Origin: an uncultured Methanomicrobiales archaeon
Lineage (GTDB): Archaea > Halobacteriota > Methanomicrobia > Methanomicrobiales > Methanospirillaceae
NCBI GenBank assembly: GCA_963758915.1
Contig: CAVWXH010000009.1
Span: 32,001-96,000, forward strand
Direction: 5' to 3'
Length of the DNA stretch: 64,000 nt
Shown here: positions 2,606 to 10,971 of the stretch, in pieces
How positions within the stretch are numbered: position 1 is the first letter of the stretch
Layout: each line of letters starts with the position of its first letter
Made by a program: the position numbers and the translations under genes
Notes under the pieces: generated by a model
The model's database searches: none
The model's input: the letters and a program-made list of their open reading frames with translations, nothing else
What the model was told of the DNA's origin: nothing

Positions 2606-4075
2606 ATGTTTACTGAAAAACTGGAAACTGCAACGCTTGCTCTTACTTTTGATGATGTCCTCCTCATGCCTGCGGAGTCCTATATCGATCCAGACCAGAC
2701 CGTAGTGACCTCACGTTTCTCGACGAATATTCCCCTCAACGTCCCGCTCGTCAGTGCCGCCATGGACACGGTTACCGAGTCAATGATGGCAATTGTGCTG
2801 GCACATGAAGGTGGTATCGGTGTAATTCACCGGAATATGCTACCCGACCACGAGGTTGAGGAAGTCAGGGCAGTGAAACAGGCAGAAGAACTGATCGAAC
2901 GGAAGGTGCTTACGGTAGGCCCTGATTCAACCGTCGCTGATGTGGAACGCCTCATGAACGAGCACCGGATTGGCGGGGTGCCGGTCATCGATGCCGGGAA
3001 AATCATCGGTATTGTAAGCCGGCGGGATGTCCGCGCGATCGCATCCAAACGTGGGACCGAACGCATAGAGGCGATAATGACGCGGAACCCTATCACTGCG
3101 GACGTTGATATCACCATGGACCAGGCGCTTGAAACCATGTACACCAACAAGGTCGAGCGCCTGCCGGTTGTTGACCAGAAGGGAAAACTGATAGGGATCA
3201 TCACGATGCAGGATATCCTTGAAAAACGCCAGTACCCAAAAGCGACACGGGACAGCAAAGGTAACCTTCGTGTCGCTGCGGCGGTCGGCCCCTTCGACTT
3301 TAACAGGGCGATGCTCCTTGACGAGGCCGGTGCCGATGCGCTGGTGGTGGACTGTGCGCACGGCCATAACATGAAAGTCGTTGCAGCGGTGAAAGATATC
3401 AAAGCAAGTGCAAAAGCCGACGTTGTGGCAGGAAATATCGCGACCGCACAGGCGGCCCGCGAGCTTGTCGACCATGTAAACGGCCTGAAAGTTGGCATTG
3501 GTCCCGGGTCTATCTGTACGACACGGATAGTCGCCGGGGTTGGAGTACCACAGATTACGGCAATCGCAGCGGTTGCGGATGTAGCCCGGCTGTCGGGTGT
3601 CCCGGTAATTGCGGACGGGGGTGTCAGGTACAGCGGCGATGTCGCCAAAGCAATCGCGGCAGGTGCCGATTCAGTAATGATGGGCAGCCTGTTTGCCGGC
3701 ACCGATGAAGCCCCGGGGAGGGTCATTACGATTAAGGGACGACGGTACAAGCAGTACCGGGGAATGGGTTCCCTCGGCGTCATGAGCTCGGGGGTCTCAA
3801 GCGACCGGTACTTCCAGCCAAAGGATATCGGGAGAACAAAATTTGTACCAGAAGGCGTGGAAGGGGTCACACCCTACGTGGGAAATGTCGCGGACATCAT
3901 CTACCAGCTCGTGGGAGGGCTGAAATCTGCAATGGGTTACACAGGATCGAAGAATATAGGGGAAATGCATGAAAAGGCAGCACTCGTCAGGATTACGCCG
4001 GCCGGACATTTCGAGAGCCACCCCCACAATATCCTGATCACCGATGAGGCTCCCAATTACCGGATTAGCGATTAA
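2606..4075 (+). CDS. guaB: IMP dehydrogenase with CBS pair
   Basis: LTFDDVLL, SAAMDTVT, KVGIGPGSICTTR catalytic loop, YRGMGS. Confidence 0.97.
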   Translation: MFTEKLETATLALTFDDVLLMPAESYIDPDQTVVTSRFSTNIPLNVPLVSAAMDTVTESMMAIVLAHEGGIGVIHRNMLPDHEVEEVRAVKQAEELIERKVLTVGPDSTVADVERLMNEHRIGGVPVIDAGKIIGIVSRRDVRAIASKRGTERIEAIMTRNPITADVDITMDQALETMYTNKVERLPVVDQKGKLIGIITMQDILEKRQYPKATRDSKGNLRVAAAVGPFDFNRAMLLDEAGADALVVDCAHGHNMKVVAAVKDIKASAKADVVAGNIATAQAARELVDHVNGLKVGIGPGSICTTRIVAGVGVPQITAIAAVADVARLSGVPVIADGGVRYSGDVAKAIAAGADSVMMGSLFAGTDEAPGRVITIKGRRYKQYRGMGSLGVMSSGVSSDRYFQPKDIGRTKFVPEGVEGVTPYVGNVADIIYQLVGGLKSAMGYTGSKNIGEMHEKAALVRITPAGHFESHPHNILITDEAPNYRISD

Positions 4076-4139
4076 ACAGGGATTATCGCTATTTCCAGCT
4101 TTTTTTTCACCTTCTGAAATCCATCTGACCCATTTGGGG

Positions 4140-4315
4140 GAAGGAATTTCTGAAATTTACTCAGGTTCCAGGGGCTCCACCCAATGGCTTAGGCAACCCT
4201 GGTTGTAATACAGACTTTTTTTTGGAACTCTACTGCATACAGGTAATCATCGGGTGAACCCTGCCCAACCAATATCTTGTTGGGGAAGGTCCGGTAGAAT
4301 GAAAAACCCTCCTGG
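4140..4315 (+). repeat. Degenerate copy of the MITE-like repeat core
   Basis: Recognisable but diverged blocks: gaaatttactca..ggggctc..ggcaaccctggttg..gaaccctgccc..aatatct..gaaaaaccctcctg. Confidence 0.55.
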
Positions 4316-4386
4316 TTATGCAGTTCCGATTTATTTCCAATCTGGAAAGAATAAACCGATCCTTCCACGCGAGAAGAAAAAAATTC

Positions 4387-4669
4387 GGCTCTGTAGAACA
4401 ATAACGGTTCCTCTGACATCACAAAATTCTATCTTCTTGCAGATTGGGAATTCCAAAATTTCGTCACGCTCCTGGGGCTCATAGCCCGCCGCTTTGGCGA
4501 CCCGGTTGGGATAGAGGCTATCCCAAAATACTCTGAATTGAATGAGCCTTCGAGAAACCCTGCCCGAAGGATATCTTAATGGGGGGTGGGGCAGGGAGGG
4601 GGTGAAACCCCCTCCTGTCTTCGTATTTCCCTCTTATTTTTTATGACACCGAAGGGTTTCAACAAAGCG
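4387..4669 (+). mobile_element. MITE-like element with IS903-like TIRs and 9-bp target site duplication
   Basis: Left end GGCTCTGTAGAAC, right end GTTTCAACAAAGCG; AAAAAATTC at 4378-4386 and 4670-4678; no transposase. Confidence 0.8.
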
Positions 4670-4971
4670 AAAAAATTCAGGAGATCCGCCTGACGGGATA
4701 GCTGAGGTATCAGGTACTGATACCGGACCCGGGATTCCGCATACTATGAAACTGAAGACTTTTGACCTGCTACTGCGGGATTCCGCCATGCACAGCAGAT
4801 AGGGGCCAGGGCTGCACATTGTCAGGATGCAGGTTGAAGCATACGGGGCACGTATCAACGGAATTACCAGACCGTATTGTGCAGGAAATGTGATTACAGC
4901 TCCGTTATATGAACATGAAAGCGGCACAATATTTTTTAGTACGGAATGTAAGGTTGCGGGTTCTGAACTAC

Positions 4972-4988
4972 AAATATTATAAATATTT
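4972..4988. promoter_or_regulatory. Inverted repeat overlapping the probable TATA box of the regulator-Hsp20 operon
   Basis: AAATATT-ATA-AATATTT overlapping TTATAAATA, 11 bp before the ORF start. Confidence 0.45.
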
Positions 4989-4999
4989 ACAGGACTAAC

Positions 5000-5632
5000 A
5001 TGAGGTTACTAATGCTCGACAGCATCGACGTTGCCCGCGTTCTGGACATCCTTGGGAACAGGAACCGAAGACGGATTATTGAACTCCTCAGGGAGAAACC
5101 GTGCTTTGTCACAGAGATCTCTGACCGGCTTACACTCTCCCCTAAAGCAGTTATCGAGCACCTGCAGATGATGGAACGAGAAGAGATCCTTGCATTCTGG
5201 ATGGACGAGAGGCGGAGAAAATACTATTTTCTTTCCAACGACATCAGCATCGTAGTGAGCCTTCAGAAGCAGGAAAGGTCTGAGGTTTCAAGAGATAGCA
5301 ATACCGGTACCGGGTTCCTGCGGTCCCTGCTGACACTCCGGAAGATGGTGCAGGCCAGGGACGAACTTGTTTCAAGGGTAGGGCACCTTGATAATGACAT
5401 CGGGGAGCAGATGCGTGAGATTGAAAAGAGAGCGAAAAGTATCCTTCAGAACGAAACAGAACTCGATCTGGTGATTGCACTTTCCCATTACCATCTCACA
5501 CTCTCCGACCTTGTCGAGCTGACGGGAAAAGAAGATGTCGAGATCATCCCGGCGGTCGAAGACCTGATATCCCGCGGGATCATCGAGCAGGAAGGCCCCC
5601 AATACCGTATCTGTGATATGTATGCCGAATAA
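5000..5632 (+). CDS. ArsR-family wHTH transcriptional regulator, Phr/HSR1-like heat-shock regulator
   Basis: LDILGNRNRRRIIELL..PCFVTEIS..KAVIEHL..RRKYY plus coiled coil; overlaps an Hsp20-like gene. Confidence 0.8.
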   Translation: MRLLMLDSIDVARVLDILGNRNRRRIIELLREKPCFVTEISDRLTLSPKAVIEHLQMMEREEILAFWMDERRRKYYFLSNDISIVVSLQKQERSEVSRDSNTGTGFLRSLLTLRKMVQARDELVSRVGHLDNDIGEQMREIEKRAKSILQNETELDLVIALSHYHLTLSDLVELTGKEDVEIIPAVEDLISRGIIEQEGPQYRICDMYAE

Positions 5633-6044
5633 AGAAAACCCGTATGATGATTTTCTCAAGTCCCTTGCAAAACTGGTAGAGGACATCATGAAGGACCTGC
5701 CTGATGATGAGCATGCGAGGTTTATCGGGTGTACGATCATTGCAGGGGGGACCAGCGGGACACCTCCTTTCTTGGAGGGGAATCAGGGTAACTGCAACGA
5801 GATCAGGTATGAAATCATCGAATCCGATGAACGGATATTTATTACCACGCAGCTGCCACCCGACATAAAAAATGCCCCTTATGCGGATATTGACCCGGAT
5901 TCAGTACGGATCTGTATCGATGACCTTAACGAGCTGATCCCGCTCCCTGTACATATCGACGTCATCCACAGCTTTTACATCGTCAGGCACGGGGTAATGG
6001 ACATCGTACTGAAAAAAAAGCCCTCCTACCCGGACATCAACTAA
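5622..6044 (+). CDS. Hsp20/CS-like domain protein
   Basis: YEIIESDERIFITTQLP and HGVMDIVLKK alpha-crystallin-like ends; coupled to the regulator. Confidence 0.65.
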   Translation: MPNKENPYDDFLKSLAKLVEDIMKDLPDDEHARFIGCTIIAGGTSGTPPFLEGNQGNCNEIRYEIIESDERIFITTQLPPDIKNAPYADIDPDSVRICIDDLNELIPLPVHIDVIHSFYIVRHGVMDIVLKKKPSYPDIN

Positions 6045-6451: not shown

Positions 6452-8635
6452 TCAGACCTTCACATGGGCGTCTGTCGTTGCCCACTCCGTAATTTTCCGC
6501 TCTTTCCTGTCATATTCATGGAACTGGCGGAGTGAGACCGTGAGATCCCGTGTGAATGCGAAGTACCCAATCTGGGTGCTGCGACATAATTTCATCGCCA
6601 TGTCCATCAGACCACGGGGGTCAGGTCTCGATTCACCAAGCCAGATATGGAAAATATTTCCCCCGTCCACGATCGGGAAGAAGACATGTTCGATCTCCAT
6701 GCGCTGTGCAAGTGTAATCCTTGCCCCGGGGGCGACATGTGTCCCATTCGTATAGTATATGGGGAGGTCACGGGTCGTCCCTATCCTTTTCAGTGACCCT
6801 TCGAGGTCTCCTTTGACAACCTTCTTTGCGGGTTCACGGAAGTCCTTGTTGAGCAGGTCTGAAACAGCGAATCGCTGGCCCGTTGTCTCGGCGGGTGTCC
6901 TTGCAAGCGCAATGGTCATCGAATGTTTTTCTGACAATTCCCTGGCATAGAGTTCCATCTCGGTCATCGCACGGACCGCGAGTTTGAATGCCTCTTTCGA
7001 TTCATGCAGTTGTGACCCGACATGGGCCTGCACCATCTCATTGACGCCGACAATCCCAATCGTGTAGACCAGTCCCTCGAGGTCTACGGCTATTGCACCG
7101 CGTTCTCCGGTGATCGGGTCTTTTGGCCTCTGCATCGCAAACGGCATCCTCCCATGTGCCCGGATAATTTCAAGCCAGCGCCGCTTGATATTGAAGACCT
7201 CAACTGCCACATCCATCATCAGGCGGAGTTCTGAAAAAAGCCGCCCGTCATCTCCTTCAGCCTTATACGCAGCACGGGGGCAGTTTAAGGAGACAACCTG
7301 CCAGGAGCCCATCGAGAAATGACGGCCCTCCTCGAAATACAACTTTTTATCAAATTCAGAGTCATTTTCCGCAACGCAGGAGAACTGGTAGGCACAACAC
7401 TGGTAGCAGGAGATACCTTTCCCTGCACCGCGATACCCGGGCATCTGGTTATCATAATAGGGAGTGCCGAATTTCGAGGCCAGTTCAAACGTGAGAAGAT
7501 AGAGCTCGCTGTAGGTCGGGAGGTCGGGGTGCGCCTGGTTATACTCATTCATCTCCTTCATGAATTCAGGTTCGATGCTGATTTCCGGTTTCGGGAAGGA
7601 GAAGGGCTTTCCCCATGAGTCCCCCTCAAGCATTACCTCCATGAGAGATTTGAAAAGGAGCCTCACTTCGCGTTCAAATTCCTGGTAGGTGCGTTTTGGT
7701 GCAGATTTTCCGTCCCAGATCTTCCCCTTGTAGACACAGGGCTTGTCTTTCCAGAGCGCAGGCACACCCGGGCATAGCTGAACAGACGAAAAGACGAGCT
7801 GGCCTCCCCGTGCAACCATCATCTGGGTCATCTCGTAGACAAACATCTGCATCATCTGCCTGATCTCGCTATAGGGCATCCCTTCGAAATAAGGTGCCAG
7901 GAATGTCAGGAAATTATAATAGCCCTGTCCGCCTGCAAAATTCGTCTGGGCACTCCCGAGTGCCTTGACCGCATGGAGCACGGCAACTTCTGCGCGCCTT
8001 GCGGGTCCGGCTACTGATGCTTTTGTACCATTCCCGTCAGGCATGAGCCCGTAGTAAAAGAAGTACCTGAGGTCCCAGTCCTGGCAGAACGGACGTGTCC
8101 CGAAATACTCAAGGTCGTGGATGTGGATATCCCCTCTCAGATGATGGTCCGCAAGTTCAGGGGGCAACTGCAGGAGGTATTGTTCCTTGCTGATCTTGTC
8201 CGCCTTTTTCTTATGAGAAGTCTCAGCGTTTTCCTGGAGGTTGGCATTATCTTTTGCCTCAAATCCCCGCCCCACATCGATCAGGTGCGCATCGTATACC
8301 GGTGTACCAACCCTTGTGCATACATTCCTGTATTGGACAAGTCCCCGTTCCAGGAGCGAGATATTCATTATTTCGCGGATCAACGGCCCTGAAAGGGATT
8401 GCAGTCCCATAGAGAGAATTCTTCGTTCCACCGACAGCGCGATCTCCCGGGCGAGTTCCTCATCCGCGCTGGTATACCCGTAAAATGTCTCAACGAGACG
8501 GGTTTCCTCCACTATCTGGCGGACGATCCGTTCCCGGTCCCACTCGATGATATGCCCGTCCGATGTCCGGACCGGGGGCAACGGGGGAATGAATATCCCA
8601 TCAAGTGTCTTCTGGCGGGTATCGCGCTTCTGCAT
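6452..8635 (-). CDS. nrdD: Anaerobic (class III) ribonucleoside-triphosphate reductase catalytic subunit, lacking C-terminal Zn/glycyl-radical domain
   Basis: N-terminal ATP cone, HLRGDIHIHDLEY, PFSFPKP, YQCCAY, TPAETT, YYTNGTH, DGGNIFH; ends without CxxC pairs or RxxGY. Confidence 0.92.
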   Translation of the reverse strand: MQKRDTRQKTLDGIFIPPLPPVRTSDGHIIEWDRERIVRQIVEETRLVETFYGYTSADEELAREIALSVERRILSMGLQSLSGPLIREIMNISLLERGLVQYRNVCTRVGTPVYDAHLIDVGRGFEAKDNANLQENAETSHKKKADKISKEQYLLQLPPELADHHLRGDIHIHDLEYFGTRPFCQDWDLRYFFYYGLMPDGNGTKASVAGPARRAEVAVLHAVKALGSAQTNFAGGQGYYNFLTFLAPYFEGMPYSEIRQMMQMFVYEMTQMMVARGGQLVFSSVQLCPGVPALWKDKPCVYKGKIWDGKSAPKRTYQEFEREVRLLFKSLMEVMLEGDSWGKPFSFPKPEISIEPEFMKEMNEYNQAHPDLPTYSELYLLTFELASKFGTPYYDNQMPGYRGAGKGISCYQCCAYQFSCVAENDSEFDKKLYFEEGRHFSMGSWQVVSLNCPRAAYKAEGDDGRLFSELRLMMDVAVEVFNIKRRWLEIIRAHGRMPFAMQRPKDPITGERGAIAVDLEGLVYTIGIVGVNEMVQAHVGSQLHESKEAFKLAVRAMTEMELYARELSEKHSMTIALARTPAETTGQRFAVSDLLNKDFREPAKKVVKGDLEGSLKRIGTTRDLPIYYTNGTHVAPGARITLAQRMEIEHVFFPIVDGGNIFHIWLGESRPDPRGLMDMAMKLCRSTQIGYFAFTRDLTVSLRQFHEYDRKERKITEWATTDAHVKV

Positions 8636-8905
8636 TTATGCACCTGCAAGAAATTGTGTGACCTTGTCTTCCCTGACATGTCCCCCAAAAAAGAGATCAG
8701 GGGATGTGAGGAAGTTGTCACCCTTCTGGAGGACGGGGGCCTCGCTGACGAATATCCCATTGATACGGAGTTCGGTCAGTGATTCGGCCGTGGACATGTC
8801 CCTCTCCTCGTACGGGATCGTGTGTCCTGTTAAATATTCTTTTAATAGTTCGCAGTTGGGACAAAGCTCAAGTGTATAGATGGTCAGTTGCGGTGAATCT
8901 GCCAA
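8636..8905 (-). CDS. nrdH: NrdH-like glutaredoxin
   Basis: YTLELCPNC redox motif, EAPVL; abuts nrdD; TTG start with GGGGTGA SD. Confidence 0.85.
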   Translation of the reverse strand: MADSPQLTIYTLELCPNCELLKEYLTGHTIPYEERDMSTAESLTELRINGIFVSEAPVLQKGDNFLTSPDLFFGGHVREDKVTQFLAGA

Positions 8906-9046
8906 TGTATCACCCCCCCTATCTCACGTACAATAGCGCTTAATTTTAAAAAAGTGTTCGATAGTTCTCCCGGGGCGCAAAGAAAATTAATTATCCCCGT
9001 ACCGGAAACAAGATATAACCATAACAGGATAAAGGAGGGGCCCGGA

Positions 9047-9586
9047 ATAGTCAGAGCATTTGTGGCAATCGACCTGTCACCTGAGATACGTGAGAAGATG
9101 CGTGAAGTACAGGAGGCAATCCGGAAGAGCGGGGCAAGAATCACACTCGTTGATCCTGCGATTATTCATATAACTATAAAATTTCTCGGGGAAATTGAGG
9201 CCCCGCGGGTCGGACCTGTCAGGGAAGCACTCAGTGAGGTCATACTTGAGCCATTTGACCTCACAATAACAGGTATTTCTGCAAATAATAACCGTAACCC
9301 CCGTGTTATATGGGGGACGGCAGGGGACAGTGGAGGATGCAGGCTCCTCTTCGAACAGGTTGAAACGGCACTCACTGCCATCGGCGTTCCACGGGAGGAG
9401 CGCGGGTTCACTCCCCATGCTACTATCGCAAGAGTAAAAGAATATCACCCGTCCCTCATGCAGTCAATCAGGCCATACCTCTCAGAAACACTGGGAGAAT
9501 GTCATATTTCCGGGTTCAGCCTGAAAAAAAGTACCCTTACCCCGACCGGACCGGTATATGATACAATTTTGGAGGTTATGTGGTAA
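9047..9586 (+). CDS. thpR: RNA 2',3'-cyclic phosphodiesterase (2H family); start at ATA 9047 or GTG 8954
   Basis: RAFVAID, HITIKFLG, PRVIW, FTPHATIAR (two HxT motifs), S.LTPTGPVY. Confidence 0.92.
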   Translation: MVRAFVAIDLSPEIREKMREVQEAIRKSGARITLVDPAIIHITIKFLGEIEAPRVGPVREALSEVILEPFDLTITGISANNNRNPRVIWGTAGDSGGCRLLFEQVETALTAIGVPREERGFTPHATIARVKEYHPSLMQSIRPYLSETLGECHISGFSLKKSTLTPTGPVYDTILEVMW

Positions 9587-10971
9587 CAAGATCTGCACTT
9601 GAAACATCAGTGCTCGAACGGATCAGGCCGCAGGCTGATGAAAGGGTGCATATCCTTACGGTAGCAGGTGAGCTGATTGACCTGGTCAACCGGAGCGGGA
9701 GGGCGACAGGGATGGTTGTAGGATCCGTTGCACGTGACACGTGGATCCGTGGTGACCGGGACCTCGATATATTCATGCTGTTCCCACCGGACCTCACACG
9801 GGAAGAACTCGAAGATGAGGGGCTTACACTTGCAAGGAACATTGCGGAATCAGCGGGGGGTACCTACCGTGAAAAGTATGCAGAACACCCATATATCAAT
9901 GCAATTATTGATGGCCTTGATATTGATATTGTCCCCTGTTACGCGGTACCAGATCCGGCAGCGATCAGGAGTGCCGTGGACAGGACACCGTTCCACACCC
10001 GGTATATAAAAGACCGCATCAGCAGCCTTATCGATGACGTGCTCCTTCTTAAACAATTTGCAAAGAATGGCGGGATTTATGGTTCTGACCAGATGACCGA
10101 AGGGTTCTCAGGGTACCTTTGTGAACTCCTTGTGTTCCATTACGGGGGTTTTATCCCGCTTCTTGCGGCAGCTTCAGACTGGTGGCCGGGAGTCCTTATC
10201 GATTGTTCAGACCACCGGACAAAGACATTTCATGAACCGCTGGTCGTGGTTGACCCTGTAGACCCGGGGAGAAATGTATCTGCCTCGGTATCACTCACCC
10301 GGATGTGCGAATTTATCGAGTTGTGCAGGGGTTATCTCGAGCGTCCCGGGGAAGGATTTTTTTTCCTTCCGGCCCCTCGTGCTGAGTCCAATGAAAAGGC
10401 AGAAATGCTGGTTGAAAAACGAAAAACCGCAATCTATACGCTGACATTCCCGACACCACCGTATATCGAGGAGATTGTAGTACCCCAGCTTCGAAAAAGT
10501 CTTGAGGCGATCTCCGCACTCCTTGCCAGGCATGAGTTCATTGTAAACCGTGCAGCGTATTGCATGAAAACGGACCGATGCATGCTCTTGTTTGAATTAC
10601 TCACCGATTCACTGCCACCCGTAACACGCCATTTCGGCCCGCCATTATGGGCCCGGGAAAATGCGAGGCAGTTTTCCGAAAAGTACATCCAGGGAATGGC
10701 AGAAGGACGCCTTTTTTCAGGGCCTTATATCGAAAACGGGATCTATGTCGTTGAACTGGAGCGGCGCTATTCATCCGCAGGTGACCTTCTGGCGTCACCC
10801 GATCTCCTGGAAGTCGGGCTCGGACGCCATGTCAGGTCGGAAATCCGGGATTCCCTTTCAGTCAGGAAAGGCCCGGATGGCATAGACGAGGAGTTTGCCA
10901 CCTTTATCACCTCATTTCTTGAAAAGTCATCCCCCCTTACACAGATCAGGCATCTGGAGAAAGGGAGGTAG
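9580..10971 (+). CDS. cca: Archaeal class I CCA-adding enzyme
   Basis: VGSVARDTW..DRDLDIF, YAEHPY, SAVDRTPFH, GFSGYLCELL, VVDPVDPGRNV. Confidence 0.95.
   Translation: MVTRSALETSVLERIRPQADERVHILTVAGELIDLVNRSGRATGMVVGSVARDTWIRGDRDLDIFMLFPPDLTREELEDEGLTLARNIAESAGGTYREKYAEHPYINAIIDGLDIDIVPCYAVPDPAAIRSAVDRTPFHTRYIKDRISSLIDDVLLLKQFAKNGGIYGSDQMTEGFSGYLCELLVFHYGGFIPLLAAASDWWPGVLIDCSDHRTKTFHEPLVVVDPVDPGRNVSASVSLTRMCEFIELCRGYLERPGEGFFFLPAPRAESNEKAEMLVEKRKTAIYTLTFPTPPYIEEIVVPQLRKSLEAISALLARHEFIVNRAAYCMKTDRCMLLFELLTDSLPPVTRHFGPPLWARENARQFSEKYIQGMAEGRLFSGPYIENGIYVVELERRYSSAGDLLASPDLLEVGLGRHVRSEIRDSLSVRKGPDGIDEEFATFITSFLEKSSPLTQIRHLEKGR

What the first reader, a model, noticed from the sequence alone, without database searches (positions are those of the whole stretch)
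6452..8905. Class III ribonucleotide reductase without its glycyl-radical domain: a split enzyme
Seen: the 727-aa NrdD keeps the ATP cone and catalytic barrel (PFC, YQCCAY, TPAE, YYTNGTH) but ends at FTRDLTVSLRQFHEY..KV. Known: canonical NrdD continues at this point with CxxC..CxxC and the RxxGY loop that carries the essential glycyl radical. I saw no such motif in the other frames or downstream, so it is not a simple frameshift, and the gene remains coupled to an intact nrdH. No nrdG is in the window. Inference: the radical is supplied in trans by a separate small Zn-ribbon/RxxGY protein, an obligate analogue of the GrcA/YfiD spare part of pyruvate formate-lyase. That would allow cheap replacement after O2 cleavage. 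I recall small stand-alone NrdD-tail proteins in Methanomicrobiales but cannot verify this here.
Basis: partly seen in the sequence, partly recalled or inferred. Interest (0 to 1): 0.75.

Follow-up and report, generated by a model that had tools for sequence, protein, structure and literature searches.

The report
Two-piece anaerobic ribonucleotide reductase in methanogens
This methanogen's anaerobic ribonucleotide reductase really does lack its radical-carrying tail, and that tail is encoded elsewhere in the genome as a separate 120-residue zinc-ribbon protein, an arrangement shared by nearly its whole order.

Summary
Window 6452-8635(-) encodes a 727-aa NrdD whose family match stops at profile position 511 of 562. 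It lacks the Zn-ribbon and RVxGY glycyl-radical domain (GRD). An abutting glutaredoxin-like gene lies upstream at 8636-8905(-).

The predicted trans-acting piece exists. On contig C10 a 120-aa ORF matches NRDD profile 509-562 (CPLC..CPEC..SRVTGY). A fused NrdD3 from another order is tiled by the two proteins: residues 5-700 (69% identity) and 709-750 (79%).

NrdG is present on a third contig.

In 121 genomes of the order, I derive 102 with both pieces. Fourteen, all one genus, have neither piece. Five of those fourteen were checked further: none has a NrdG match over cut-off, and all five have another RNR.

A co-fold supports binding (0.88 against 0.00 for the best control). Halves of a solved fold can pass by likeness.

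Caveat: 110 of 121 genomes of the order also carry a class I/II-type RNR, although none was found in this 94%-complete genome.

A related family of stand-alone GRD proteins coexists with fused NrdD in Methanococcoides and ANME-2c genomes. One copy lies on a viral contig.

My literature searches found no description of this. A 2026 review states that spare-part proteins are known only for formate lyases.

Verdict: a real, conserved, apparently undescribed split class III RNR, with no biochemical evidence yet.

The parts
6452..8635 (-). nrdD, large piece: 727-aa class III ribonucleotide reductase core. It has a weak ATP-cone-like N-terminus, an NxN flap at N130-A-N132, the barrel and a QCCA finger loop at C413/C414. 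It lacks the Zn-ribbon and glycyl-radical domain and ends with a 27-residue tail after the last barrel strand.
   Evidence: Residues 8-706 align with residues 5-700 of a fused 753-aa NrdD3 at 69% identity. The 120 best homologues listed, of 1888 found, are 706-732 aa and 80-98% identical.
8636..8905 (-). nrdH-like glutaredoxin (89 aa, CPNC, TTG start). Its stop codon abuts the nrdD start codon. It is the presumed disulfide reductant of an NrdD3-type enzyme.
   Evidence: PF00462 E 1.5e-5; TIGR02194 NrdH 22.5 bits, below its cut-off. The same nrdH-nrdD order is seen upstream of the fused NrdD3 in G243 (L019:194-514, then 511-2772).

Best explanation
The window encodes the catalytic core of a two-polypeptide class III (NrdD3-type) ribonucleotide reductase. 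[quoted passage not shown] Here an ancient gene fission has placed it on a separate 120-aa protein. That protein lies outside the window at G000:C10:24077-24439(-), between pyrF and a CbiZ-like gene.

Proposed mechanism (inferred):
1. The radical-SAM activase NrdG (G000:C3:62652-63374(-)) abstracts the hydrogen of Gly95 in the SRVTGY loop of the small protein.
2. The small protein docks into the open end of the NrdD barrel. Its strand D86-I90 pairs with the last NrdD strand (T698-L702). Its glycyl loop reaches the C413/C414 finger loop. Its C-terminal helix lies on the surface, as in fused enzymes.
3. A family-specific N-terminal Zn ribbon (C29, C32, C41, C44, plus C53, C60 and H62) adds binding surface in place of the lost covalent link.
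4. Reducing equivalents come through the co-transcribed NrdH-like glutaredoxin.

What is shown: both pieces exist, they are complementary, they are conserved, they co-occur, and they are lost together. What is inferred: binding, radical formation on the small protein, and any advantage such as replacing only a 120-aa piece after O2 cleavage.
For: (1) Complementary pieces. The large protein covers Pfam NRDD profile 1-511 and the small one covers 509-562. These are the only two PF13597 matches in the assembly.

(2) Tiling of a fused orthologue. In G243's 753-aa NrdD3, residues 5-700 match the large piece (69% identity) and residues 709-750 match small-protein residues 79-120 (79% identity).

(3) The radical glycine aligns. 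The small-protein profile, positions 77-116, matches Prevotella copri NrdD chain 8p23 residues 697-737 (E 5.7e-8). G95 falls on the G of RITGY. The paper puts the radical at Gly711 and the GRD at residues 676-739, starting after the last barrel strand (passages).

(4) Conservation. S91-R-V-T-G-Y96 and C29, C32, C41, C44, C53, C60, H62, C71, C74 and C79 are invariant in 34 small proteins; C82 is nearly invariant. There are 338 homologues of 66-210 aa.

(5) Order-wide pattern, derived over 121 genomes: both pieces in 102; small only in 2 (85% and 62% complete); large only in 3 (71%, 93% and 56% complete); neither in 14, all of genus g20.

(6) Co-loss. In 5 of 5 g20 genomes checked, no NrdG2 match is over cut-off, and all five have a PF02867 RNR.

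(7) Activase. NrdG2 scores 153.6 bits against a cut-off of 131.15 in this genome, with the CPVRCTYC radical-SAM motif.

(8) No class I/II RNR was found in this 94%-complete assembly (tblastn with a same-family NrdJ gave a best E of 2).

(9) Co-fold. ipSAE 0.88 (runs 0.89, 0.86, 0.88); best of 3 controls 0.00. The mark was reached by 116 of 157 solved complexes and by 2 of 215 mismatched pairs; these counts hold only roughly because my own alignments were used. Runs share at least 95% of contacts, and partner pLDDT is at least 84. The interface lists NrdD 128-132 (NxN flap), 413-415 (finger loop) and 693-710, and small-protein 86-99 (including G95) and 102-120.

(10) Weak hint of expression. 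Contigs from RNA libraries of three studies cover parts of the small ORF: 210 nt with 1 difference, 289 nt with 13, and 182 nt with 13.
Against: - There is no biochemical evidence of any kind.
- The co-fold is of two halves of a fold that has been solved as one chain (T4, T. maritima and P. copri NrdD). A pass may reflect that likeness rather than binding.
- 110 of 121 genomes of the order, including 5 of 5 single-contig genomes of the same family, carry a class I/II-type RNR. The split enzyme is therefore not demonstrably essential. Its apparent status as the only RNR here rests on a 94%-complete, 18-contig assembly.
- None of the 10 other genomes without PF02867 is a single-contig assembly.
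- The three genes (nrdH-nrdD, the small gene and nrdG) are unlinked, so gene context does not tie them together.
- A Foldseek search with the small protein modelled alone (mean pLDDT 75.8) found nothing significant.
- RNA-library contigs do not prove transcription.
Confidence: 0.85

Rival explanations
1. Exchangeable radical cartridge. The small protein is not a fixed subunit. It is activated off-enzyme by NrdG, docks, and is swapped out after O2 cleavage or radical loss. It would have evolved from an accessory spare part that took over when the resident GRD was lost. This is a sub-variant of the best explanation, not an alternative to trans supply.
For: A related stand-alone GRD family coexists with fused NrdD (774-804 aa) in Methanococcoides and ANME-2c/Methanosarcinales genomes. 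This shows the accessory state exists in the sister order. In P. copri NrdD the GRD moves as a rigid body and becomes fully disordered with dATP (passages), so leaving the barrel is physically normal. In PFL, GrcA/YfiD plays this role (passages of the 2026 review).
Against: No data bear on exchange. The co-fold shows a large interface of more than 200 contacts, which fits a stable complex equally well. The oxidative-stress gene neighbourhood of the Methanococcoides-type gene in one genome (desulfoferrodoxin, Usp, VIT1) is not found in 10 other loci of that family. The direction of evolution, spare part first or fission first, was not tested with a tree.
Confidence: 0.35
2. The truncated NrdD is a non-catalytic or re-purposed relic, and a class II-type RNR makes the dNTPs. 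The small protein would then serve some other role.
For: A PF02867 RNR is present in 110 of 121 genomes of the order and in 5 of 5 complete genomes of the same family.
Against: - The 120 best large-protein homologues listed are 80-98% identical.
- The catalytic motifs are invariant in 24 sequences: C184, the NxN flap and the C413/C414 finger loop.
- The small protein keeps an invariant SRVTGY.
- Large piece, small piece and NrdG are lost together in genus g20.
- No PF02867 match was found in this genome or in 10 others. Six of those others are listed as at least 98% complete.
Confidence: 0.07
3. Protein trans-splicing. The NrdD C-terminal tail and the small protein's N-terminal part form an atypical split intein that ligates the two chains into a canonical NrdD.
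For: NrdD genes of this order are rich in inteins; open frames of 1200-2000 aa interrupt the profile match. The first residue after the break is Ser, where fused enzymes have Cys.
Against: - No HINT or intein family matches either protein at E<=0.01.
- The non-NrdD parts are only about 27 aa and about 70 aa.
- Their invariant residues are Cys/His of Zn-ribbon type. The N-terminal ribbon weakly resembles Spt4.
- The residue before C71 is an invariant Tyr, not the terminal Asn of an intein. That expectation about inteins is recalled knowledge.
Confidence: 0.02
4. A strain-specific truncation, a frameshift or an assembly artefact.
For: None was found.
Against: The same end point (profile 510-516) appears in the 64 strongest uninterrupted matches of the order-wide search. 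The 120 best database homologues listed are 706-732 aa. No tail is present in any frame downstream.
Confidence: 0.01

Closest known systems
Canonical class III RNR, NrdD3 subtype (Methanosarcina barkeri type: NrdD + NrdG + NrdH-like glutaredoxin)
   Same: The barrel, the NxN flap, the QCCA finger loop without Met or Glu (the NrdD3 signature according to PMC9669993 section 2.5, read), an nrdH-like gene directly upstream, and an NrdG2-type activase. It is 69% identical to a fused NrdD3 of another order.
   Different: The Zn-ribbon and glycyl-radical domain is on a separate, unlinked 120-aa protein. That protein has its own complete CxxC..CxxC ribbon and an extra N-terminal Zn ribbon. The large chain has Ser where fused enzymes have the first Zn-ligand Cys. 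The M. barkeri paper (Wei et al. 2015) could not be read. Its content is recalled, apart from the table in PMC9176816 that lists 'Glutaredoxin-like NrdH (NrdD3)'.
GrcA/YfiD, the autonomous glycyl-radical 'spare part' of pyruvate formate-lyase
   Same: [quoted passage not shown]
   Different: GrcA rescues a full-length PFL after O2 cleavage. Here the parent enzyme has no GRD of its own, so the small protein would be required for any activity. It is homologous to NrdD, not to PFL: no PF01228 match at E<=0.01. It is Zn-ribbon based. The 2026 review (PMC13450708, passages) says formate lyases are the only GRE class with spare-part proteins.
Split class II RNR (NrdJa/NrdJb, Pseudomonas aeruginosa)
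   Same: An RNR whose C-terminal Zn-finger-containing part is a separate polypeptide (PMC9669993 passages; PMC4520616 seen as a search listing and abstract start only).
   Different: Different RNR class. The separated part carries redox cysteines and IscU-like and Zn-finger domains, not the radical. The two genes are consecutive there and unlinked here.
Class I RNR alpha/beta architecture
   Same: By analogy only: the stable radical is stored on a separate small subunit that must dock on the catalytic subunit.
   Different: No homology. In class I the radical is a tyrosyl or metal-centre radical passed by long-range transfer. Here a glycyl loop would insert directly next to the active-site Cys.

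Membership tests
Class III RNR catalytic subunit NrdD (PF13597 / TIGR02487) | Barrel-domain match above the curated cut-off | tested here: met
   PF13597 441.4 bits (cut-off 26.2). TIGR02487 473.1 bits (cut-off 326.35)..
Class III RNR catalytic subunit NrdD (PF13597 / TIGR02487) | Finger-loop cysteine(s) and the conserved beta-A cysteine | tested here: met
   YQCCAY (C413, C414) and RPFCQDW (C184) are invariant in 24 sequences. QCCA is the NrdD3 motif according to PMC9669993. The assignment of C184 to beta-A is by position and not from a structure.
Class III RNR catalytic subunit NrdD (PF13597 / TIGR02487) | C-terminal Zn ribbon and RVxGY glycyl loop on the same polypeptide | tested here: not met
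   The profile match ends at 511 of 562, and no tail lies in any downstream frame. The feature is supplied by a separate ORF on contig C10.
Class III RNR catalytic subunit NrdD (PF13597 / TIGR02487) | Cognate radical-SAM activase NrdG in the genome | tested here: met
   TIGR02495 153.6 bits (cut-off 131.15) at G000:C3. The ORF is 240 aa with CPVRCTYC and matches PF04055.
Class III RNR catalytic subunit NrdD (PF13597 / TIGR02487) | NTP reduction dependent on a glycyl radical (activity assay, EPR doublet) | not testable with these tools
   This needs anaerobic reconstitution.
GrcA/YfiD-type spare-part protein | Small stand-alone homologue of the parent enzyme's C-terminal glycyl-radical domain | tested here: met
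   120 aa; residues 56-117 match NRDD profile 509-562. 79% identical to the tail of a fused NrdD3.
GrcA/YfiD-type spare part protein | Sequence membership in the PFL glycyl-radical family (PF01228) | tested here: not met
   The Pfam scan at E<=0.01 returned NRDD, DZR and TerY_C only.
GrcA/YfiD-type spare-part protein | Coexists with a full-length parent enzyme, which it rescues after O2 cleavage | tested here: not met
   The parent enzyme in this genome and this order lacks the domain. A related family does coexist with fused NrdD in Methanococcoides and ANME-2c genomes. Rescue itself cannot be tested here.
Split intein (protein trans-splicing) | HINT-domain halves flanking the break | tested here: not met
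   No HINT or intein family at E<=0.01 in either protein. The flanking parts are about 27 and about 70 aa and have Zn-ribbon-type invariants.

The most novel reading that the evidence does not exclude
Methanomicrobiales run a class III RNR whose radical lives on a dissociable, replaceable 'cartridge' protein. NrdG would charge it off-enzyme and it would then plug into the NrdD barrel. This would be a glycyl-radical counterpart of the class I alpha/beta arrangement. It may have arisen when an ancestral spare part, still accessory in Methanococcoides and ANME-2c, became the only source of the radical. The same protein family is diverse: 135 of the best 150 cluster representatives are 260 aa or shorter. 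It also reaches viruses, which might supply a fresh radical domain to a host NrdD.
Probability: 0.35. Interest if true: 0.85.

Novelty: new variant of a known kind. Interest (0 to 1): 0.72.

Why it matters
Every characterised class III RNR carries its glycyl radical on the catalytic chain. How the activase reaches that buried glycine is a long-standing structural problem for all glycyl-radical enzymes.

A natural system in which the radical domain is a free 120-aa protein offers three things:
- a tractable substrate for NrdG, for complex structures and for EPR on the small protein alone;
- a direct test of whether the domain can be charged outside the barrel;
- the first spare-part-like proteins outside the formate lyases.

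It also matters for annotation. The small proteins are currently named 'hypothetical', 'oxidoreductase', 'Spt4/RPABC4' or 'anaerobic RNR'. The 727-aa proteins are named as complete NrdD. Surveys of RNR C-termini that use the large chain alone would miss the GRD in this order.

Tried and rejected
- Read-through or frameshift: no tail lies in any frame downstream.
- Strain-specific truncation: rejected.
- Foldseek (PDB) search with the small protein modelled alone: nothing at E<=0.001, only generic Zn ribbons. A P. copri NrdD chain appeared at rank 24 with 30 aligned columns.
- Gene-context link. The small gene sits in a conserved array: deoxyhypusine-synthase-like gene (named from its N-terminal sequence, not scanned), pyrF, small gene, CbiZ-like gene with a Cys-rich domain, then two genes I take to be RPA-like by recall. 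Seven genomes of the order were fetched. The flanking array recurs in all seven; the ORF tiler printed the small ORF in four of them (three flagged by motif), and spurious longer ORFs displaced it in the other three. Pfam was run only on the own-genome neighbours. nrdG has unrelated neighbours. Context therefore neither supports nor contradicts the pairing.
- Oxidative-stress context of the Methanococcoides-type gene. It is seen in one genome and not in 10 other loci of that family. I dropped it as support.
- RNA evidence. Only contigs from RNA libraries were available, with small word shares (0.06-0.09). They cover parts of the small ORF but cannot show transcription.
I then used single proteins on viral contigs only and ran no metagenome scan.
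- The Wei et al. 2014 and 2015 papers are not held.
- No tree was built, so the order of events (spare part first or fission first) is open.
Full report
OBSERVATION

Window 6452-8635(-) is an open 727-aa frame. It starts with ATG and ends ...GYFAFTRDLTVSLRQFHEYDRKERKITEWATTDAHVKV*.

Pfam NRDD matches residues 129-701, but only profile positions 1-511 of 562 (E 6.9e-132). NCBIfam TIGR02487 matches profile 1-529 of 581 at 473 bits, above its cut-off of 326. The missing positions are the Zn ribbon and the RVxGY glycyl loop.

The 550 bases downstream hold no such motif in any frame. A six-frame search of the whole assembly with PF13597 gave only two matches.

The ORF directly upstream, 8636-8905(-), is 89 aa with a CPNC motif. 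It is glutaredoxin-like (PF00462, E 1.5e-5). Its stop codon abuts the nrdD ATG.

The N-terminal 'ATP cone' is only a sub-threshold match (E 0.0036, 18.2 bits against 25.8).

THE MISSING PIECE EXISTS

The second PF13597 match in the assembly is at G000:C10. There a 120-aa ORF (L002:1489-1851(-), protein P0003) matches NRDD profile 509-562 (E 7e-15) and TIGR02487 540-581. It reads ...[51 protein letters not shown].

The two proteins are exactly complementary on the family profile. They also tile a fused enzyme. In G243, a genome of another order of the same phylum, a 753-aa NrdD follows an nrdH-like gene. Its residues 5-700 align with the large protein at 69% identity. Its residues 709-750 align with small-protein residues 79-120 at 79% identity.

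A profile of the small proteins matches the solved Prevotella copri NrdD (8p23) at residues 697-737 of the 743-residue chain, with G95 on the G of RITGY. The paper on that structure places the radical at Gly711 of a 739-residue protein. It places the GRD at residues 676-739, beginning after the last barrel strand (passages read). The four-residue offset between the deposited chain and the paper's numbering is my inference.

The break in this enzyme therefore sits at the core/GRD domain boundary.

THE REST OF THE SYSTEM

An NrdG2-type activase is present on a third contig: TIGR02495 at 153.6 bits against a cut-off of 131.15. The ORF is 240 aa, carries CPVRCTYC and matches PF04055.

Two ferredoxin-thioredoxin-reductase-like matches (PF02943) also exist. 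One of them is interrupted by two stop codons.

The finger loop YQCCAY is the QCCA motif, without Met or Glu, that PMC9669993 section 2.5 assigns to the NrdD3 subclass. PMC9176816 lists 'Glutaredoxin-like NrdH' as the NrdD3 reductant. The two Wei et al. papers behind this were not held.

CONSERVATION

The 120 best database homologues of the large protein listed, out of 1888 found, are 706-732 aa and 80-98% identical. Source names point to Methanoregulaceae.

The small protein has 338 homologues of 66-210 aa. Their source names come from Methanoregula, Methanofollis, Methanolacinia, Methanospirillum, Methanoculleaceae and Methanogenium. The proteins are named variously 'anaerobic ribonucleoside-triphosphate reductase', 'oxidoreductase', 'hypothetical' and 'Spt4/RPABC4'.

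In 34 aligned small proteins the invariant residues are:
- S91-R-V-T-G-Y96;
- the canonical ribbon C71, C74 and C79, with C82 nearly invariant;
- an extra N-terminal ribbon C29, C32, C41 and C44;
- C53, D56, C60 and H62.

Where fused enzymes have the first Zn-ligand Cys (FTRDMTxC), the large protein has Ser. The small protein appears to carry a self-contained four-Cys ribbon. This is an inference from sequence.

ORDER-WIDE PATTERN

In 121 genomes sampled from the order, PF13597 matched 107. The 64 strongest uninterrupted matches all run from profile position 1 to 510-516. Intein-interrupted copies also stop at 510-511. The only listed match that reaches the end of the profile is a second, distant copy in G003 (1-560, in a 569-aa frame).

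The small-protein profile found a full-length match (positions 1-119, E<=3e-60, in frames of 120-290 aa) in 104 of the 121.

Combining the two searches gives these derived counts:

| Pieces found | Genomes | Notes |
|---|---|---|
| Both | 102 | |
| Small only | 2 | G061 and G098, 85% and 62% complete |
| Large only | 3 | G073, G097 and G103, 71%, 93% and 56% complete |
| Neither | 14 | all 14 genomes of genus g20 |

In 5 of 5 g20 genomes checked, no NrdG2 match is over cut-off, and a PF02867 RNR is present. Large piece, small piece and activase therefore go together in presence and in loss.

Outside the order, a sample of 201 genomes of the phylum was searched with the small-protein profile. 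There the profile matches only through its last ~40 positions, inside frames of 600-830 aa, which are fused NrdD. The exceptions are described in the section on the wider family.

CO-FOLD

NrdD residues 120-727 (alignment of 24 sequences) were co-folded with the small protein (alignment of 34 sequences).

- The score (ipSAE) was 0.88 (runs 0.89, 0.86, 0.88). The best of 3 controls scored 0.00.
- The mark was reached by 116 of 157 solved complexes and by 2 of 215 mismatched pairs. These counts hold only roughly, because my own alignments were used.
- The runs agree in at least 95% of contacts, and partner pLDDT is at least 84.

The interface lists these residues:
- NrdD 128-132 (the N130-A-N132 flap), 413-415 (the finger loop) and 693-710;
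- small-protein 86-99 (including G95) and 102-120;
- N-terminal-domain residues 28, 33-37, 42-43 and 58-69 of the small protein.

Strand pairing 698-702 with 86-90 is among the most confident contacts. This mirrors the flap-GRD-substrate network described for P. copri NrdD.

These are halves of a fold that has been solved as a single chain. The pass may therefore reflect likeness to those structures. It supports binding and does not show it.

AGAINST, AND LIMITS

- 110 of 121 genomes of the order carry a class I/II-type RNR (PF02867), including 5 of 5 single-contig genomes of this family.
- None was found in this assembly (tblastn with a same-family NrdJ gave a best E of 2). None was found in 10 other genomes, six of them listed as at least 98% complete. 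None of the eleven is a closed genome, and this one is 94% complete.
- The split enzyme is therefore conserved and apparently functional, but it is not shown to be essential.
- The three loci are unlinked.
- RNA-library contigs from three studies cover parts of the small ORF: 210 nt with 1 difference, 289 nt with 13, and 182 nt with 13. Such contigs cannot prove transcription.
- The trans-splicing alternative is unlikely. No HINT match was found in either protein, the flanks are short, and their invariant residues are of Zn-ribbon type.

A WIDER FAMILY

Genus g59 is named Methanococcoides by the records. It has a 118-aa stand-alone GRD protein in addition to fused NrdDs of about 800 and about 620 aa. 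ANME-2c and other Methanosarcinales MAGs have the same arrangement, with fused NrdDs of 774-782 aa in the same assemblies. These look like true accessory spare parts.

The small-protein profile was also run against 1.84 billion cluster representatives. It found 673 proteins at E<=0.001. Of the best 150:
- 135 are 260 aa or shorter. About ten of these are evident fragments of fused NrdD.
- The first fused NrdD appears near rank 106.

One small protein (109 aa) lies on an IMG/VR viral contig among virus-like genes.

I could not name the taxa behind most of these clusters.

NOVELTY

Nine of the ten allowed full-text searches were run. Terms combined NrdD, class III RNR, glycyl radical, split, stand-alone, spare part, separate polypeptide, NrdD3 and the genus names. 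None found a description of a split class III RNR.

[quoted passage not shown] The RNR-family analyses PMC9669993 and PMC9531940 (passages, and one section of the former) describe the GRD as C-terminal. They mention split enzymes only for class II.

The library lacks most subscription journals, and I saw no supplements. A prior mention elsewhere, for example in RNRdb curation, cannot be excluded. Databases already label some of the small proteins by similarity.

VERDICT

This is a real, order-wide, two-gene class III RNR with its radical domain supplied in trans. I rate it a new variant of a known kind, with high confidence in the architecture and no experimental evidence yet.

Noticed in passing
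G000:C16:108889-109050(+) (own genome, outside the window): A decayed partial copy of the small GRD gene. It matches profile positions 61-114, has Trp in place of the radical Gly (RVTWY), an in-frame TAA and a frameshift. It lies about 5.5 kb from an FTR-like gene at C16:114485-114760.
   Followed up: partly
L020:2964-3320(-) (G161); L025-L034: A second family of ~118-aa stand-alone NrdD-type GRD proteins in Methanococcoides and ANME-2c/Methanosarcinales genomes that also have fused NrdD. These are candidates for true spare parts. The desulfoferrodoxin/Usp/VIT1 neighbourhood in G161 is not shared by the other loci.
   Followed up: partly
L133:6989-7318(+) (IMG/VR viral contig): A 109-aa stand-alone Zn-ribbon + RITGY protein among virus-like genes. 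No NrdD is present in the 14 kb held.
   Followed up: no
L024:2834-3163(+) and 3403-5802(+) (G191); G057:C82:65859-67898: In two genomes a stand-alone GRD gene lies next to a class II-type RNR gene (PF02867). The G191 copy looks degenerate at its C-terminus (NRDD 22.2 bits, below cut-off). The G057 adjacency is read from coordinates only.
   Followed up: no
Order-wide, (e.g. G118, G058, G004, G070): Many nrdD genes of the order sit in open frames of 1200-2000 aa, with the profile match broken near positions 53, 263 and 510. This fits one to several inteins. The window's copy has none.
   Followed up: no
G003:C1:590703-592373 (L022:389-2086(+)): One genome of the order has an additional, distant, fused 565-aa NrdD (profile 1-560, ending ...RIRRVSGY...) beside its split enzyme.
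   Followed up: no
L002:607-1470(-) (own genome, next to the small gene): A CbiZ-like protein fused to a Cys-rich small domain (PF04071) lies immediately downstream of the small GRD gene. This order is conserved in the genomes inspected. In G017 the two ORFs overlap by 4 nt, which suggests co-transcription. No functional link is known.
   Followed up: partly
L035:3830-4225 (contig binned as Candidatus Saccharibacteria): A Methanomicrobiales-type small GRD protein on a contig assigned to a Saccharibacteria bin. It is probably a binning error.
   Followed up: no
window 8954-9586(+), 9580-10971(+), 5000-5632(+): Flanking ORFs of 210, 463 and 210 aa run divergently from or beside the nrdH-nrdD pair. 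By eye they look like a 2'-5' RNA-ligase-like protein, a CCA-adding-enzyme-like protein and an HTH regulator. They were not scanned.
   Followed up: no
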